From: a virus
Lineage: Duplodnaviria; Caudoviricetes
Direction: 5' to 3' (one strand)
IMG/VR virus record: IMGVR_UViG_3300025671_008697
Length of the DNA: 64,000 bases
Below, piece by piece: positions 2,530 to 29,169 of the stretch (positions are counted from its first letter, which is position 1; each line of letters starts with the position of its first letter). The translations under genes were made by a program, and so were the position numbers. Below the pieces are notes generated by a model. It was not told the DNA's origin and made no database searches. It saw nothing but the letters and a program-made list of their open reading frames with translations.

Positions 2530-3126
2530 ATGATTATTGGAATTTGTGGTTTAATTGGCGCTGGCAAAGATACTGCCGCAGACTATTTGGTAAATTGGCA
2601 TGAATTTCGTCGTGACAGTTTTGCCGCAACTTTGAAAGATGCTGTTAGTGCAGTATTTGGTTGGGACCGAGAACTTCTAGAAGGACGTACCAAAGCCGCA
2701 AGAGAATGGCGTGAACAGATTGACACTTGGTGGGCCAATCGCTTAGACATGCCAGATTTGACCCCACGCTGGGTCTTACAGTATTGGGGTACAGATGTAT
2801 TCCGCAATCATTTCCACCAAGATATTTGGATTGCTAGTTTGGAAAATAAACTGCGTCAGACCCGAGACAATGTAGTAATTTCAGATTGCAGGTTTCTAAA
2901 CGAAGTTGAAAGCATTCGCAGGATTGGTGGCAGAGTAATTAGAATCGTTCGAGGACAAGATCCAGAGTGGTTTCATTTAGCACGAACTGATCCGCAGAGT
3001 ATGCCTGCCCGATATCCCGGAGTTCATGCCAGCGAATATAGTTGGGCACCCACAGAATTTGACCACATTGTAGAAAACAACAGCACTATCGACGAATTAT
3101 ATCGTGAACTTAAAAATCTGGTGTAA
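2530..3126 (+). CDS. gp1: Deoxynucleoside monophosphate kinase (T4 gp1-like)
   Basis: N-terminal P-loop GLIGAGKDT, 'SFAATLKD', 'PRWVLQYWGT', 'VVISDCRFLNE', 'HASE'. Confidence 0.9.
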   Translation: MIIGICGLIGAGKDTAADYLVNWHEFRRDSFAATLKDAVSAVFGWDRELLEGRTKAAREWREQIDTWWANRLDMPDLTPRWVLQYWGTDVFRNHFHQDIWIASLENKLRQTRDNVVISDCRFLNEVESIRRIGGRVIRIVRGQDPEWFHLARTDPQSMPARYPGVHASEYSWAPTEFDHIVENNSTIDELYRELKNLV

Positions 3127-26314: not shown

Positions 26315-26343
26315 TTGACATAAAATCCCCGTTACTATATAAT
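26315..26343 (+). promoter_or_regulatory. Consensus sigma70 promoter for the tRNA cluster
   Basis: TTGACA(26315)-17-TATAAT(26338). Confidence 0.9.
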
Positions 26344-26352
26344 AAGTCTATT

Positions 26353-26429
26353 GCGCTTGTAGCTCAGTTGGTTAGAGCAGTGGACTCATAATCCATTGGT
26401 CGCGGGTTCGAGTCCCTCCGAGCGCACCA
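26353..26429 (+). tRNA. tRNA-Ile2 (CAT anticodon, lysidine type; Met not excluded)
   Basis: Cloverleaf with CT-CAT-AA loop, Ile2-like context, CCA encoded. Confidence 0.85.
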
Positions 26430-26438
26430 GGTTAACAT

Positions 26439-26525
26439 GCCCGGATGGCGAAATCGGTAGACGCCTCAGACTTAAAATCTGATATCCGCATGGGTGTGCC
26501 GGTTCGAGTCCGGCTCCGGGCACCA
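26439..26525 (+). tRNA. tRNA-Leu (TAA)
   Basis: TCAGA-CT-TAA-AA-TCTGA, long variable arm, CCA. Confidence 0.93.
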
Positions 26526-26650
26526 CGAGATTATTATGAGTTTAGGTTCATTATACCTTTTGATTCAGTTCTTTAATAAACAAGAAATTTGTTTTTGGGA
26601 CATTCACCAAGATTAATTTTGGATAAGTACAGTACTTCAAGGAGAACTGT

Positions 26651-26797
26651 ATGGCAGCAAAATCGAAATTAGGTGAAAAACCCCAAGTCAAATTAAAAAT
26701 TGAAAAGCGTACCAGTCAAGGTGGCAAAGTCAAACGCTCGAGCATGAACAAAGGTCGAAAGCGTGGTTTTAAAGCATACCGTGGTCAGGGACGCTAA
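26651..26797 (+). CDS. 48 aa highly basic protein ending KAYRGQGR
   Basis: MAAKSKLGEKPQVKLKIEKRTSQGGKVKRSSMNKGRKRGFKAYRGQGR; RBS aggag. Confidence 0.75.
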   Translation: MAAKSKLGEKPQVKLKIEKRTSQGGKVKRSSMNKGRKRGFKAYRGQGR

Positions 26798-26807
26798 GTA
26801 AACACGT

Positions 26808-26884
26808 TCCCTGGTAGCTCAGTAGGTAGTAGCAACGGACTGTTAATCCGTGTGTCGTTGGTTCGAGCCCAACCCGGGGAGCCA
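26808..26884 (+). tRNA. tRNA-Asn (GTT)
   Basis: ACGGA-CT-GTT-AA-TCCGT, GCCA end. Confidence 0.93.
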
Positions 26885-26891
26885 TTATTTC

Positions 26892-26920
26892 TTGACAACT
26901 GTAGTTTTTGCATATATAAT
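26892..26920 (+). promoter_or_regulatory. Consensus sigma70 promoter
   Basis: TTGACA(26892)-17-TATAAT(26915). Confidence 0.9.
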
Positions 26921-26938
26921 ACAGACATAGAGAGATAG

Positions 26939-27014
26939 GCCGTCTTAGCTCAGCAGGTAGAGCAACGGATTTGTAACCCGTAGGTCGCCAGTTCGATTCC
27001 GGCAGACGGCACCA
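26939..27014 (+). tRNA. tRNA-Thr (TGT)
   Basis: Anticodon loop TT-TGT-AA, CCA. Confidence 0.92.
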
Positions 27015-27112
27015 TATTAAAGCATATCTAGTCGTATGTTGAGCCTATTAGGCCTACAACGGTGTACGATGAAATTGCTGTGTTGTAGTGGCATGGTATG
27101 CTTTAATATGGT
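27011..27112 (+). repeat. Inter-tRNA stalk element A (16 bp perfect terminal inverted repeat)
   Basis: ACCATATTAAAGCATA (27011-26) / TATGCTTTAATATGGT (27097-112). Confidence 0.85.
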
Positions 27113-27116
27113 AAAT

Positions 27117-27201
27117 GCCCCTTTGGCGTAATTGGTAGCCGCGCTGGATTTAGGTTCCAGTACCGAGAGGTGTGAGGGTTCGAGTCCCTTGGGGGGCACC
27201 A
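27117..27201 (+). tRNA. tRNA-Leu (TAG)
   Basis: CTGGA-TT-TAG-GT-TCCAG, long variable arm, CCA. Confidence 0.92.
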
Positions 27202-27209
27202 TATAGTGT

Positions 27210-27283
27210 GCAGGATTCGTATAGTGGTAATACCTCAGCCTTCCAAGCTGATGCGAGGAGTTCGATTCTCCTATCCTGCTCCA
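27210..27283 (+). tRNA. tRNA-Gly (TCC)
   Basis: TCAGC-CT-TCC-AA-GCTGA, TCCA end. Confidence 0.93.
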
Positions 27284-27286
27284 AGT

Positions 27287-27363
27287 CGGGGTGTAGCACA
27301 GCCTGGTAGTGCGCTTGGTTTGGGACCAAGATGTCGGAGGTTCGAATCCTTTCACCCCGACCA
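27287..27363 (+). tRNA. tRNA-Pro (TGG)
   Basis: CTTGG-TT-TGG-GA-CCAAG, CGGGG 5' end, CCA. Confidence 0.93.
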
Positions 27364-27370
27364 TTAAGTT

Positions 27371-27446
27371 GGATCGTTAGCTCAGATGGTAGAGCGTCGG
27401 CTTTACACGCCGAATGTCGGCAGTTCGATCCTGTCACGATCCACCA
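27371..27446 (+). tRNA. tRNA-Val (TAC)
   Basis: TCGGC-TT-TAC-AC-GCCGA, CCA. Confidence 0.93.
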
Positions 27447-27464
27447 TGCTAAATAATCTACCCT

Positions 27465-27538
27465 GGGGGATTAGTGAAGTGGGATCACGCCAGATTTGCA
27501 TTCTGGAATCAGGAGTTCGACTCTCCTATCCTCCACCA
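27465..27538 (+). tRNA. tRNA-Ala (TGC)
   Basis: CCAGA-TT-TGC-AT-TCTGG; G3:U70 identity pair present; CCA. Confidence 0.93.
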
Positions 27539-27540
27539 AT

Positions 27541-27587
27541 TAATACTTTAGTATTATATTGACAGTAATTCAGATTTCACATACAAT
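27541..27587 (+). promoter_or_regulatory. sigma70 promoter (TTGACA-17-TACAAT) with upstream palindrome TAATAC-TTTA-GTATTA
   Basis: Palindrome 27541-56, -35 at 27559, -10 at 27582. Confidence 0.8.
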
Positions 27588-27601
27588 ACACTTAAGTTGA
27601 C

Positions 27602-27656
27602 GCACATTAGAGATAAGACGGTACTGGTTCGAAACGGGACTCCTCGTCTAGTGTGT
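27602..27656 (+). repeat. Short stalk element B (GCACATTAGA / TCTAGTGTGT)
   Basis: 10 bp stem with wobbles sharing the GCACATT/AGTGTG core of elements D and E; interior contains GGTTCGAAAC. Confidence 0.55.
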
Positions 27657-27661
27657 TTCTT

Positions 27662-27736
27662 GCACGGTTCGTCTATCGGTTAGGACACTGGCCTTTCACG
27701 CCGGTAAGAGGGGTTCGATTCCCCTACCGTGTACCA
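27662..27736 (+). tRNA. tRNA-Glu (TTC)
   Basis: CTGGC-CT-TTC-AC-GCCGG, CCA. Confidence 0.92.
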
Positions 27737-27741
27737 AACAT

Positions 27742-27819
27742 AGTACGGTGGCAGAGTGGCCCAATGCACGGGACTGCAAATCCCGAAAACCGTCGGTTCA
27801 AATCCGACCCGTACTTCCA
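27742..27819 (+). tRNA. tRNA-Cys (GCA)
   Basis: CGGGA-CT-GCA-AA-TCCCG, U73 discriminator, CCA. Confidence 0.92.
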
Positions 27820-28035
27820 GAACGTTCCGTGTAGCAACGGATACTCCGACCCGGAGGATGAGAAGTGGTGTAGCAACCACGGGTGGTTCCAGTCCAACCG
27901 AACTGGCGCTGGCAATGCGATAACGGTCCCCGTCGGGGAGCGGGTGGAAGGCGTGCGTGATGGTATGCTGTTTAACCGAAAGGTGACAGGGTGCTTGATG
28001 CGCTATAATTACCGCCGGGGGATGCAGAGCATTTG
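27820..28035 (+). ncRNA. Candidate GC-rich structured ncRNA of unknown class
   Basis: Consecutive hairpins, two with the identical GTAGCA loop, and a GAAA tetraloop; no credible ORF or RBS. Confidence 0.6.
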
Positions 28036-28059
28036 TTAACTTAACAAAGGAGAAGATGT

Positions 28060-28308
28060 ATGCAGTTTATTACATTAAATCAAAGGCACCATCTAGGCCG
28101 TCGAGGTTTTAAATACGCATTTGTGTTTAAGACCTACTCTCAAGAACGGCCTAGCGAATATGCAATTAGTGAAATGGTAAGGAAAGCAGAAGGCATGGGG
28201 TATGATAACACATTCTATGGCAAGAGTCCTGGCAATTGCGAGCGCAGGCCTTACTACGTCGGATTTAACAACGAAACAACTGCAACATTGGTACAATTGC
28301 AGTTATGA
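28060..28308 (+). CDS. Hypothetical protein
   Basis: 82 aa ORF with strong RBS (aaggag). Confidence 0.7.
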   Translation: MQFITLNQRHHLGRRGFKYAFVFKTYSQERPSEYAISEMVRKAEGMGYDNTFYGKSPGNCERRPYYVGFNNETTATLVQLQL

Positions 28309-28323
28309 TAAAAGGAGAAAGCA

Positions 28324-28464
28324 ATGAAGCCAAAACAAATCGCTAGGCAACGTAACCGCTTCGTTGCTTTGGCATTAATGAGAAAAGCGGGCGCACATCG
28401 CAAGTCTAACAAGGCCTTGCGTAGACAACACAAAGCGTCCTTAGATCAGTCGGTAGAGCAGTAG
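28324..28464 (+). CDS. 46 aa basic protein (RKAGAHRKSNKALRR) whose 3' end reads through a tRNA-like 5' half
   Basis: RBS aaggag; translated by hand. Confidence 0.7.
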   Translation: MKPKQIARQRNRFVALALMRKAGAHRKSNKALRRQHKASLDQSVEQ

Positions 28465-28466
28465 AC
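28435..28466 (+). pseudogene. tRNA 5'-half remnant
   Basis: GCGTCCTTAGATCAGTCGGTAGAGCAGTAGAC has acceptor 5' strand and D-arm signature but no T-arm or 3' acceptor strand downstream. Confidence 0.55.
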
Positions 28467-28550
28467 CATATAAAAACACATCGTCCTAGAAGCAGTGAGA
28501 TGAAGACACAATAGGCTCACAAGGGGTGTCACGGTGTGTTTCTATATGGT
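28465..28550 (+). repeat. Stalk element C (20 bp stem, one mismatch, one G:U)
   Basis: ACCATATAAAAACACATCGT / ACGGTGTGTTTCTATATGGT. Confidence 0.8.
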
Positions 28551-28620
28551 TTGACAAAAGGTGGTATGTAGTCGTTGTCAATGCGGCGAGGACCGGGATT
28601 CCTTTCTCAGCAACACTGAG

Positions 28621-28722
28621 ACCATATTGAAGCACATTGCCCGCCGTGGTAGGGGAATCGCAAACAGATTGATCACTGTTGCCGATGAGTGGTTCGAATC
28701 CAACAGTGTGCTTCAATATGGT
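28621..28722 (+). repeat. Stalk element D (19 bp stem) enclosing a tRNA-like cloverleaf
   Basis: ACCATATTGAAGCACATTG / CAGTGTGCTTCAATATGGT; interior has TGGTA D-loop-like and GGTTCGAATCC T-loop-like motifs. Confidence 0.85.
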
Positions 28723-28725
28723 AAT

Positions 28726-28812
28726 GGAGATGTAGGAAAATTGGTAACCCCAGCGGACTGTAAATCCGCCGCCCGAAAGGCACTGTGTGTTCGACTCACA
28801 CCGTCTCCACCA
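28726..28812 (+). tRNA. tRNA-Tyr (GTA)
   Basis: GCGGA-CT-GTA-AA-TCCGC, long variable arm, CCA. Confidence 0.92.
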
Positions 28813-28886
28813 TATTGAAGCACATTCTAGGCACGATCTTTACTGCAGGTGCCGACGAAAAAGAGACGAGTGTGCTTCAATATGGT
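28809..28886 (+). repeat. Stalk element E (19 bp stem) joining tRNA-Tyr ACCA to the tRNA-Asp 5' GGT
   Basis: ACCATATTGAAGCACATTC / GAGTGTGCTTCAATATGGT. Confidence 0.87.
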
Positions 28887-28958
28887 CTGTTAGTTAAACG
28901 GTTATAATAATGGCCTGTCACGCCGTAGTCAGGGGTTCGACTCCCCTACAGACCGCCA
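28884..28958 (+). tRNA. tRNA-Asp (GTC)
   Basis: Anticodon loop CT-GTC-AC, GCCA end. Confidence 0.9.
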
Positions 28959-28964
28959 AATAAA

Positions 28965-28993
28965 TTTACATACTGATTATAAATCAGTATAAT
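28965..28993 (+). promoter_or_regulatory. sigma70 promoter (TTTACA-17-TATAAT) with palindromic spacer
   Basis: TACTGAT-TATAA-ATCAGTA spans the spacer and start of the -10. Confidence 0.7.
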
Positions 28994-29002
28994 TACTTTA
29001 AA

Positions 29003-29089
29003 GGAAGGTTGGCAGAGTGGTAATGCACCGGATTGCTAATCCGCCGCTCAGAAATGGGCGCACAGGTTCGAGTCCTGTACCTTCCGCCA
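29003..29089 (+). tRNA. tRNA-Ser (GCT)
   Basis: CGGA-TT-GCT-AA-TCCG, long variable arm, GCCA. Confidence 0.92.
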
Positions 29090-29093
29090 TATT

Positions 29094-29169
29094 GCGGGAT
29101 TAGCTCAGTTGGTAGAGCGAATGCTTGCCAAGCATTAGGTCGTCGGTTCGAACCCGATATCCCGCTCCA
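29094..29169 (+). tRNA. tRNA-Gly (GCC)
   Basis: AATGC-TT-GCC-AA-GCATT, GCGGGA 5' end, TCCA. Confidence 0.93.

What the first reader, a model, noticed from the sequence alone, without database searches (positions are those of the whole stretch)
27820..28035. ~210 nt GC-rich multi-hairpin RNA starting immediately after tRNA-Cys CCA
Seen: TCCGT-GTAGCA-ACGGA (27826-41) and GTGGT-GTAGCA-ACCAC (27865-80) have identical loops on different stems. Further hairpins are CTCCG/CGGAG, CCAGT/ACTGG, TCCCC/GGGGA and ACC-GAAA-GGT. A longer stem carries opposed GAT/GAT (tandem-GA, k-turn-like) motifs, and GGTGG could pair with CCGCC. The region is much more GC-rich than its flanks and lacks the hallmarks of tmRNA, RNase P, SRP or 6S. 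Established: phage tRNA clusters can host large ornate RNAs (GOLLD, ROOL). Inference: a structured ncRNA with duplicated protein-binding loops.
Basis: partly seen in the sequence, partly recalled or inferred. Interest (0 to 1): 0.72.

Follow-up and report, generated by a model that had tools for sequence, protein, structure and literature searches.

The report
New structured RNA in phage tRNA array
The flagged stretch is a real, strongly conserved, folded non-coding RNA gene of about 216 bases in the tRNA gene array of an uncultivated giant phage; it belongs to a family found in well over a hundred such phages and in no RNA catalogue searched, and its job is still unknown.

Summary
Window 27820-28035 (+) is a genuine structured ncRNA gene. 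It starts at the base after the CCA of tRNA-Cys. In its closest relatives it ends exactly at tRNA-Tyr. Rfam 15 gives no match, even at E<=10.

A covariance model built here finds one copy in each of 113 IMG/VR contigs recovered with a short motif, plus others, giving 112 distinct sequences of 176-249 nt. A complete 348-kb phage genome has one copy. PA5oct and T4 gave no match to the model, blastn found no relative in the collection of sequenced phages, and a motif scan of bacterial genomes found none.

A curated fold of 49 pairs is 96.4% paired, against 77.6% in shuffles, and 35 pairs show compensatory changes.

The TCCCC/GGGGA hairpin is wrong: that strand pairs long-range with 28018-28025. 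The two identical GUAGCA loops occur only in this subfamily. In most members the same two loops are complementary, which indicates a kissing contact rather than duplicated protein sites.

The most likely reading is a stable trans-acting RNA cut out of the tRNA transcript by tRNA-processing enzymes. Its target is unknown.

This scan had already met the family on other DNA (e1-5375737, e1-5342656).

The parts
27559..27587 (+). sigma-70-type promoter-like site (TTGACA-17-TACAAT) upstream of tRNA-Glu, tRNA-Cys and the RNA
   Evidence: 11 of 12 matches. No terminator-like site lies between it and the RNA. Function is inferred.
27662..27819 (+). tRNA-Glu(UUC) 27662-27736 and tRNA-Cys(GCA) 27742-27819 with encoded CCA. 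The RNA starts at the next base.
27820..28035 (+). the ncRNA gene as a whole (216 nt)
   Evidence: Homology limits. Covariance model match 218 bits, (the window is in the model's seed). G.U pairs fix the + strand.
27826..27841 (+). P1 hairpin UCCGU-GUAGCA-ACGGA
   Evidence: All 5 pairs show compensatory changes; 99.2% of cells paired.
27844..27856 (+). P2 hairpin CUCCG-ACC-CGGAG. Loop plus closing pair GACCC is the same in 77 of 79 sequences.
27865..27880 (+). P3 hairpin GUGGU-GUAGCA-ACCAC. Its loop is the inferred kissing partner of the P1 loop.
   Evidence: 48:59 is GC/AU/UA and 49:58 is GC/CG/AU. Loop complementarity.
27881..27887 (+). invariant single strand GGGUGGU (J3/4). Inferred docking site for the ACC-containing loops of P2 and P4.
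   Evidence: Invariant in every member, including those found without this motif in the pattern. The pairing is inference only.
27889..27906 (+). P4 hairpin CCAGU-CCAACCGA-ACUGG. The loop ACC is 99% conserved.
   Evidence: 70:87, 71:86 and 72:85 covary.
27907..27919 (+). P5 hairpin CGC-UGGCAAU-GCG (loop URGCAAU)
   Evidence: Never varies, but it was part of the search pattern. It is also present in members found by other routes.
27925..27931 (+). P6, 5' strand GGUCCCC. Pairs long-range with 28018-28025.
   Evidence: 106:184 to 112:177 are 94-100% standard pairs with 4-5 pair types. This helix was not in the model that made the alignment.
27940..27947 (+). P6b, 5' strand GCGG-G-UGG. Pairs with 28009-28015.
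   Evidence: 122:173 is CG/UA/AU, 100% paired.
27950..28004 (+). P7 arm: C-stem, box C/D-like k-turn (GUGAUGG / CUUGAU), and an extension capped by GAAA (27978-27981)
   Evidence: The C-stem has 6 of 6 pairs with compensatory changes.
28009..28015 (+). P6b, 3' strand UUACCGC
28018..28025 (+). P6, 3' strand GGGGAUGC
28026..28035 (+). conserved 3' tail AGAGCAUUUG. In relatives the next base is the first base of a tRNA.

Best explanation
Window 27820-28035 encodes one member of a large, uncatalogued family of 176-249-nt structured non-coding RNAs. These phages carry it once, inside their tRNA gene arrays; they are uncultivated jumbo phages, and the window's own large terminase is only 57% identical to that of PA5oct.

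Biogenesis (inferred). The RNA is transcribed with tRNA-Glu and tRNA-Cys from the promoter-like site at 27559-27587. The host tRNA-maturation machinery then frees it. The 5' end would come from an endonuclease cut after the upstream tRNA's CCA (RNase E or RNase BN/Z type). Where a tRNA follows directly, the 3' end would come from RNase P cleavage at that tRNA's 5' end.

Fold (shown by covariation). Five short hairpins, P1-P5, are followed by a long composite arm. That arm is closed by two long-range helices, P6 and P6b, and ends in a variable k-turn arm, P7.

Compaction. The P1 and P3 loops kiss, which is shown statistically across the family. In this subfamily the contact would run through the quasi-palindromic GUAGC. 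The invariant strand GGGUGGU probably docks the invariant ACC-containing loops of P2 and P4; this is inference.

Action (inferred). The mature RNA acts in trans as a stable compact particle. Given its fixed company, the most likely target is a component of the tRNA or translation apparatus. What it binds is not known.
For: Conservation beyond the coding neighbours. The first 132 nt are 97-98% identical in contigs whose adjacent protein is only 73% identical.

Not coding. Homologues differ by 1- and 2-nt indels inside conserved blocks.

Family size. Every one of the 113 new loci carries exactly one model match, at E from 1e-11 to 1e-42. A complete 348-kb genome carries one copy.

Structure.
- 96.4% of cells form standard pairs, against 77.6 +/- 0.4 in shuffles and 34-43% with slid partners.
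- 35 of 49 pairs have compensatory changes.
- The covariation score is 0.433, against 0.14 in shuffles.
- P6 and P6b were found by mutual information although the aligning model lacked them. They were replicated on 33 new sequences.
- Kissing loops.

Context.
- 74 of 87 loci have a tRNA within 1.5 kb.
- 48 of 87 start 0-1 nt after a same-strand tRNA 3' end, with nine different tRNA identities.
- 21 of 87 end 6 nt or less before the next tRNA, and 16 do both.
- In L002-L004 and L066 the RNA fills the Cys-Tyr gap exactly.
- No neighbouring protein family is shared by more than 15 of 87 loci.

Presence in RNA libraries. Metatranscriptome contigs from three runs (each filed under its own study code) hold close relatives of 27817-27963.

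Promoter-like site.
Against: - No direct evidence shows a discrete, stable transcript or its ends. The RNA-library contigs could come from precursors or from contaminating DNA, and two of them (X15 record 1, X16 record 6) carry upstream tRNA sequence joined to the RNA.
- The processing enzymes are assumed from E. coli and T4 knowledge.
- No partner is identified. No L7Ae-type k-turn protein was found in the complete relative.
- The GGGUGGU-to-ACC docking rests on invariant bases and so has no covariation support.
- In the window's own subfamily the P1-P3 loop contact needs two wobble pairs and an A.A mismatch.
- 13 of 87 loci have no tRNA within 1.5 kb. Tight tRNA linkage is therefore usual, not obligatory.
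Confidence: 0.6

Rival explanations
1. It is a cis-acting part of the tRNA transcript: a folded spacer that guides or times processing, protects neighbouring tRNAs from exonucleases, or sets their stoichiometry. On this reading it has no life of its own after cleavage.
For: - It abuts tRNA ends at 0-1 nt in 48 of 87 loci.
- No partner protein is conserved nearby.
- RNA-library contigs still join it to the upstream tRNA.
Against: - A spacer role does not need about 60 near-invariant unpaired bases, a kissing-loop contact and two long-range helices.
- There is one copy per genome, although the arrays hold 15 or more tRNAs.
- 13 of 87 loci have no tRNA within 1.5 kb, and in L068 the nearest is 6.7 kb away.
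- The upstream tRNA identity varies freely.
Confidence: 0.12
2. It is a decoy or sponge used in phage-host conflict. It would soak up a host factor that attacks phage tRNAs or translation, such as an anticodon nuclease or another RNA-sensing defence, or titrate a host RNA-binding protein. This is a special case of trans action.
For: - It sits with phage tRNAs, and in relatives also with a phage tmRNA. These are commonly read as counter-measures to host tRNA depletion.
- It is restricted to phages as far as tested: the only bacterial-genome search, an exact-motif scan, gave hits at chance level and none of them matched the model.
Against: - It resembles no tRNA, anticodon arm or known host RNA.
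- Extreme conservation across distant phages is unusual for an arms-race component.
- No defence-related neighbour is conserved.
Confidence: 0.13
3. It is a ribozyme, for example a self-cleaving RNA that cuts at its own 5' edge and so frees the upstream tRNA's 3' end, or an RNA that acts on tRNAs.
For: - The 5' boundary is exact against nine kinds of upstream tRNA.
- The core is very conserved and knotted, with many invariant unpaired bases.
Against: - No match to HDV-like, hatchet, hammerhead, twister, pistol or RNase P models at E<=10.
- The covariation-supported topology of serial hairpins plus one long arm is not the nested double pseudoknot of HDV-like ribozymes.
- A self-cleavage product would leave a cyclic phosphate on the tRNA's CCA end.
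- Tight spacing is normal in phage tRNA arrays.
Confidence: 0.06
4. It is a riboswitch or leader that controls the small ORF starting at 28060.
For: In the window an ORF with a good Shine-Dalgarno sequence starts 25 nt after the RNA.
Against: - That ORF lies in a 690-nt insertion absent from the nearest relatives, where tRNA-Tyr follows at once.
- In 21 of 87 loci a tRNA follows within 6 nt.
- No downstream gene is conserved.
- No riboswitch family matches.
Confidence: 0.02

Closest known systems
Phage T4 species 1 and species 2 RNAs (rnaC, rnaD)
   Same: They are small stable RNAs of unknown function encoded at the end of a phage tRNA cluster. They abut a tRNA gene and each other within a few bases, so they mature from the tRNA transcript (annotation; sequence).
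   Different: No detectable homology: the family model scores 4 bits or less on the T4 tRNA region. The T4 RNAs are shorter (119 and 139 nt), and rnaC ends in a tRNA-like T-arm and acceptor, which this RNA lacks.
GOLLD (RF02032) and ROOL RNAs
   Same: They are phage and prophage structured RNAs of unknown function, often beside tRNA islands. They are rich in kissing loops and other tertiary contacts and have no known protein partner (PMC12286853).
   Different: They are 2 to 4 times larger and form multimeric RNA cages. No sequence or structure match appears at E<=10. The oligomeric state of this RNA is unknown.
Kink-turn of the box C/D type (RUGAUGA / CUGA)
   Same: The P7 arm has a C-stem, a 3-nt bulge, tandem G.A/A.G and then U.U. 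Some relatives carry perfect GUGAUGA...CUGA.
   Different: This is a motif, not a family. There is no guide region or second C'/D' pair. No L7Ae-family protein was found in a complete related genome. The arm is missing or replaced in many members.
Bacterial and phage Y RNAs (YrlA, RF02553)
   Same: They are structured RNAs found among tRNA genes in some phages.
   Different: No YrlA match falls on the RNA; the only one, at 23.6 bits, lies on tRNA genes. There is no tRNA-like module. No neighbour family is shared by more than 15 of 87 loci, and none of the commonest looks like Ro60.

Membership tests
GOLLD / ROOL / other ornate large RNAs in Rfam | match to the family covariance model | tested here: not met
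   No match at gathering score or at E<=10 on the window, nor at E<=1 on seven diverse members.
RNase P RNA (bacterial A/B, archaeal, type T) | covariance-model match; P4 helix formed by conserved regions CR-I and CR-V | tested here: not met
   No match at E<=10. The long-range helix found here (P6) has different flanking conserved sequences, in a different order (the comparison with CR-I/CR-V is from my own knowledge).
tRNA / tRNA-like, tmRNA, SRP RNA, 6S RNA | detection by ARAGORN or the Rfam models | tested here: not met
   ARAGORN and Rfam find only the flanking tRNAs.
Self-cleaving ribozymes that cut at their 5' edge (HDV-like, hatchet) | covariance-model match; nested double pseudoknot (HDV-like) | tested here: not met
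   No match. The covariation-supported topology is serial hairpins plus one long arm. Cleavage itself cannot be tested with these tools.
T4 species 1/2 type RNAs | sequence and structure homology to rnaC or rnaD | tested here: not met
   The model run without filters on the T4 tRNA region gives 3.9 bits or less.
T4 species 1/2 type RNAs | non-tRNA RNA gene packed against tRNA genes on the same strand | tested here: met
   T4 layout
Kink-turn motif | C-stem, 3-nt bulge, tandem sheared G.A/A.G, then the non-canonical stem | tested here: met
   Window bases 27950-27961 and 27996-28004 fit the consensus, which recurs in about half of the members (43 of 79 by a simple pattern). This is sequence-level evidence only; the kink itself is not shown.
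Kink-turn RNP (L7Ae-type partner) | an L7Ae/L30e-family protein available to bind the kink-turn | tested here: not met
   PF01248 is absent from the complete 348-kb relative, while the control genomes gave matches. The host proteome is unknown.
The family defined here (model R1) | P1-P5, long-range P6/P6b, invariant GACCC, GGGUGGU, ACC and URGCAAU | tested here: met
   The window has all of them. It was one of the model's four seed sequences, so its own score is not independent.

The most novel reading that the evidence does not exclude
The RNA is a new class of RNA-only machine dedicated to the phage's tRNA or translation take-over. One version is a compact particle, possibly homo-oligomeric through its quasi-palindromic or complementary loops, as GOLLD and ROOL are. 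It would capture tRNA 3' ends or a ribosomal site through the invariant GGGUGGU strand. Another version is a new ribozyme acting on tRNA precursors.
Probability: 0.12. Interest if true: 0.92.

Novelty: new variant of a known kind. Interest (0 to 1): 0.7.

Why it matters
Structured RNAs this strongly conserved have repeatedly turned out to be ribozymes, riboswitches or cores of RNA-protein machines. Here there are dozens of near-invariant unpaired bases, two long-range helices and a covarying loop-loop contact, spread over more than a hundred distantly related phages.

This family is absent from Rfam 15 and from the papers I could search. It is restricted to large aquatic phages that also carry big tRNA sets and, in some relatives, their own tmRNA. 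That makes it a likely unknown component of how giant phages rebuild the host's translation system.

It also adds a compact, roughly 200-nt case to the unsolved problem posed by T4 species 1/2 RNAs and by GOLLD and ROOL: why phages keep elaborate RNAs beside their tRNAs. An RNA of 200 nt is far easier to study by structure probing, cryo-EM or crystallography and pull-downs than GOLLD.

Tried and rejected
- **Rfam**: nothing but tRNAs, at gathering score on the whole window and at E<=10 on 27500-28750. The same holds for seven relatives at E<=1.
- **Single-sequence folding**: z = -1.5 on + and 0.07 on -, too weak to decide. Its long irregular helix AAGUG/CAUUU and the local UCCCC/GGGGA hairpin were later refuted by covariation.
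- **Helix (a)**, GGGUGGU 27881-87 with ACCGCC: it pairs in 92-100% of sequences but has no compensatory change, and it is broken (U.U) in the six sequences where 173 is U. Helix (b), GCGG/CCGC, compensates there.
- **Coding reading** of the open frame 27653-28039: rejected by frame-breaking indels in homologues.
- **blastn against sequenced phages**, with the window and with a typical member: no relative.
- **PA5oct** genome (model with default filters) and the **T4** tRNA region (filters off): no match.
- **Bacterial genomes**: one exact-word scan found nothing. The motif scan gave 58 hits, about the number expected by chance in 596 Gb. They are unrelated to each other and negative with the model.
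- **Relatives of the downstream 82-aa ORF** in viral contigs: none.
- **Conserved neighbouring protein**: none in more than 15 of 87 loci.
- **L7Ae-family protein** in a complete relative: none.
- **A69/U69 with loop position 77**, as an extension of a GGU-ACC docking: no covariation seen by eye in three sequences.
- **Literature searches** found no description of this RNA. One search failed on a term with a slash.
- **RNA-library contigs** cover only part of the stretch and cannot show transcript ends. The parts without cover say nothing.

Full report
**Setting**

The window comes from an uncultivated myovirus with jumbo-phage relatives. It encodes a tail sheath and a large terminase. The terminase is 57% identical to that of Pseudomonas phage PA5oct and less to other jumbo phages. 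No whole genome is held for the window.

Positions 26353-29169 hold 15 tRNA genes on the + strand. Four near-consensus sigma-70-type promoter-like sites are interspersed, and no terminator-like site was found. One promoter-like site, at 27559-27587, precedes tRNA-Glu, tRNA-Cys and the flagged stretch.

**The observation**

- The stretch starts at the base after the encoded CCA of tRNA-Cys.
- It is richer in G+C than its flanks.
- It has no Rfam match even at E<=10.
- Folding the single sequence is uninformative: z = -1.5 on the + strand and 0.07 on the - strand.

**Homologues**

A search with the neighbouring 339-aa protein gave 40 related viral contigs. Three of them, whose copy of that protein is 73% identical, carry the element with its first 132 nt 97-98% identical. 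In those contigs it fills the gap between tRNA-Cys and tRNA-Tyr exactly; the metagenome contig L066, found by a motif scan, shows the same layout. The window differs by a 690-nt insertion with two small ORFs after the element, and by a longer tip on one hairpin.

Pattern scans and a covariance model built from these four sequences (R1) then recovered progressively more distant members. Searching whole related contigs added more; the only complete genome among them, 348 kb, has one copy.

All 113 new loci contain exactly one model match. This gives 112 distinct sequences of 176-249 nt.

The same motif hits 58 places in 596 Gb of bacterial genomes. That is roughly the chance expectation. The hits are unrelated to each other and negative with the model.

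blastn against sequenced phages and the model run on PA5oct and on the T4 tRNA region show nothing.

**Not coding**

Homologues differ by 1- and 2-nt indels inside conserved blocks. The open frame listed is therefore accidental.

**Structure**

I computed mutual information with average-product correction over all column pairs of the 79 distinct sequences of alignment A5. I then checked candidate helices.

| Helix | Window coordinates | Note |
|---|---|---|
| P1 | 27826-41 | hairpin |
| P2 | 27844-56 | hairpin |
| P3 | 27865-80 | hairpin |
| P4 | 27889-906 | hairpin |
| P5 | 27907-19 | hairpin |
| P6 | 27925-31 with 28018-25 | long-range |
| P6b | 27940-47 with 28009-15 | long-range |
| P7 C-stem | 27950-55 with 27999-28004 | plus an apical stem |

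P6 and P6b were not in the model that produced the alignment. Their covariation is therefore not an artefact of model fitting, and it was reproduced on 33 further sequences.

On the curated 49-pair structure:

- 96.4% of cells form standard pairs, against 77.6 +/- 0.4% in shuffles and 34-43% with slid partners.
- 35 pairs show compensatory changes.
- The covariation score is 0.433, against 0.14 in shuffles.

The many conserved G.U pairs fix the + strand.

Two features of the first fold fail:

- The local hairpin TCCCC/GGGGA. Pair 109:119 is standard in only 34% and 20% of sequences.
- The long irregular helix AAGUG/CAUUU.

Of the two GGGUGG copies that could pair with ACCGCC, covariation at 122:173 (CG/UA/AU) selects the second.

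**The loops**

In the other subfamilies the P1 and P3 loops differ from each other but are complementary:

- UGUC/GACA
- AUCA/UGAU
- GUCA/UGAC
- AACG/CGUU
- UAACG/CGUUA

The mean longest Watson-Crick run is 3.4. It is 2.64 +/- 0.15 when loops are re-paired between subfamilies (0 of 2000). The same combinations recur in the 33 new sequences. This indicates a loop-loop (kissing) contact that knots the 5' domain.

GUAGC is quasi-self-complementary: G-C, U.G, A.A, G.U, C-G. Its predicted duplex energy is -2.4 kcal/mol, within the range of the other subfamilies. The identical loops of the window are therefore best read as that contact in a symmetric guise. A symmetric loop could in principle also pair between molecules.

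**The k-turn arm**

P7 has the box C/D-like k-turn consensus: GUGAUGR on the bulged strand and CUGAU on the other. Tandem G.A/A.G pairs and a U.U pair follow a 3-nt bulge. In the window these are 27956-61 and 27996-98.

About half of the members keep it. Others replace the arm by a plain hairpin or by a larger domain, so it is peripheral. No L7Ae-type protein is encoded by the complete relative.

**Invariant unpaired bases**

These include:

- GACCC (P2 loop)
- GGGUGGU (27881-87)
- ACC in the P4 loop
- URGCAAU (P5 loop)
- the joiner GAUGAGAA
- the 3' tail AGAGCA

GGGU-GGU is complementary to ACCC and ACC, which suggests loop docking. Invariant bases give no covariation, so this remains inference.

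**Context**

- 74 of 87 loci have a tRNA within 1.5 kb.
- 48 start 0-1 nt after a same-strand tRNA 3' end. The upstream tRNAs are Tyr, Ser, Cys, Asn, Gly, Asp, Ala, Pro and Arg.
- 21 end 6 nt or less before the next tRNA, and 16 do both.
- In one lineage the upstream 'gap' is a tRNA-like sequence that ARAGORN missed.
- No protein family is shared by more than 15 loci.

**RNA libraries**

Metatranscriptome assemblies from salt-marsh and aquatic samples contain 152-176-nt contigs. These cover 27817-27963 of close relatives, and two of them (X15 record 1, X16 record 6) are still joined to an upstream tRNA 3' half. This shows presence in RNA libraries. It does not show a mature transcript.

**Interpretation**

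Shown: a conserved, single-copy, phage-specific, intricately folded RNA gene treated by the genome as one more unit of the tRNA array.

Inferred from established tRNA-operon processing in E. coli and T4 (RNase P at tRNA 5' ends; RNase E or RNase BN/Z plus exonucleases at 3' ends): it is released by that machinery and acts in trans.

Unknown: its target.

Rivals are a cis-acting processing spacer, a decoy, a ribozyme and a leader for the downstream ORF. They are weighed in their own sections. The leader reading is contradicted by the comparative data.

**Comparison with what is known**

Functionally and positionally the nearest things are the T4 species 1 and 2 RNAs and the GOLLD and ROOL RNAs (PMC12286853). 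There is no homology to either.

It is a new family within the loosely defined kind 'elaborate RNAs of unknown function kept beside phage tRNA genes'.

Earlier notes of this scan on other genomes describe the same family. Two follow-up reports reached the same general conclusion. I re-derived the family, its size and its knot independently here. One earlier first-reader helix, GGUGGUAG with UUACCGCC, is disfavoured by my covariation test.

Noticed in passing
window 28036-28725: A 690-nt segment lies between the RNA and tRNA-Tyr. It carries two small ORFs: 28060-28308 (82 aa, good Shine-Dalgarno sequence) and 28324-28464 (46 aa, very basic). About 260 nt of non-coding sequence follows. The segment is absent from the closest relatives, where tRNA-Tyr follows the RNA at once. 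The 82-aa ORF has no PHROG match and no relative in viral contigs.
   Followed up: partly
window 26315-26343, 26892-26920, 27559-27587, 28965-28993: Four near-perfect sigma-70-type promoter-like sites (11-12 of 12 matches) lie on the + strand inside the tRNA array, and no terminator-like site was found. The array may be several short transcription units.
   Followed up: no
window 28631-28712; also 27011-27112, 28465-28550, 28809-28886: There is a weak tRNA-Sec-like match (20.4 bits, below threshold) at 28631-28712. I did not examine them.
   Followed up: no
L057 8974-9379 (-); L067 2888-3215 (+): Related phage contigs encode their own tmRNA inside the tRNA array, with tag peptides ANDEVYALAA and ANDELYALAA.
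   Followed up: no
L062 856-1083; L057 6618-6845 (-): A 75-aa ORF that looks like the RNA polymerase omega subunit (motif NRYDLVLIASRRARELS; recognised from memory, not tested) starts about 20 nt after the RNA in one lineage. A similar small family occurs downstream in 12 of 87 loci.
   Followed up: partly
L053 197-272: A tRNA-like sequence missed by ARAGORN (tRNA-Sec model 32.5 bits, below threshold) ends in CCA directly before the RNA.
   Followed up: partly
L251 (T4) 2909-3047 (-): T4 rnaC contains the motif GAGUAGCGU twice, plus GAACGUUCGGAUA. These loosely recall the window's GUGUAGCAAC repeats and its GAACGUUCCG...CGGAUA. The family model finds no relation, so this is probably chance.
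   Followed up: partly
L148 2488-2663; L100 3623-3798: In some short members the k-turn arm is replaced by a hairpin CCG-UAGCAAU-ACGG. Its loop copies the invariant P5 loop URGCAAU. The window's GUAGCA(A) loops resemble it too, so this loop type may be a reusable docking module.
   Followed up: no
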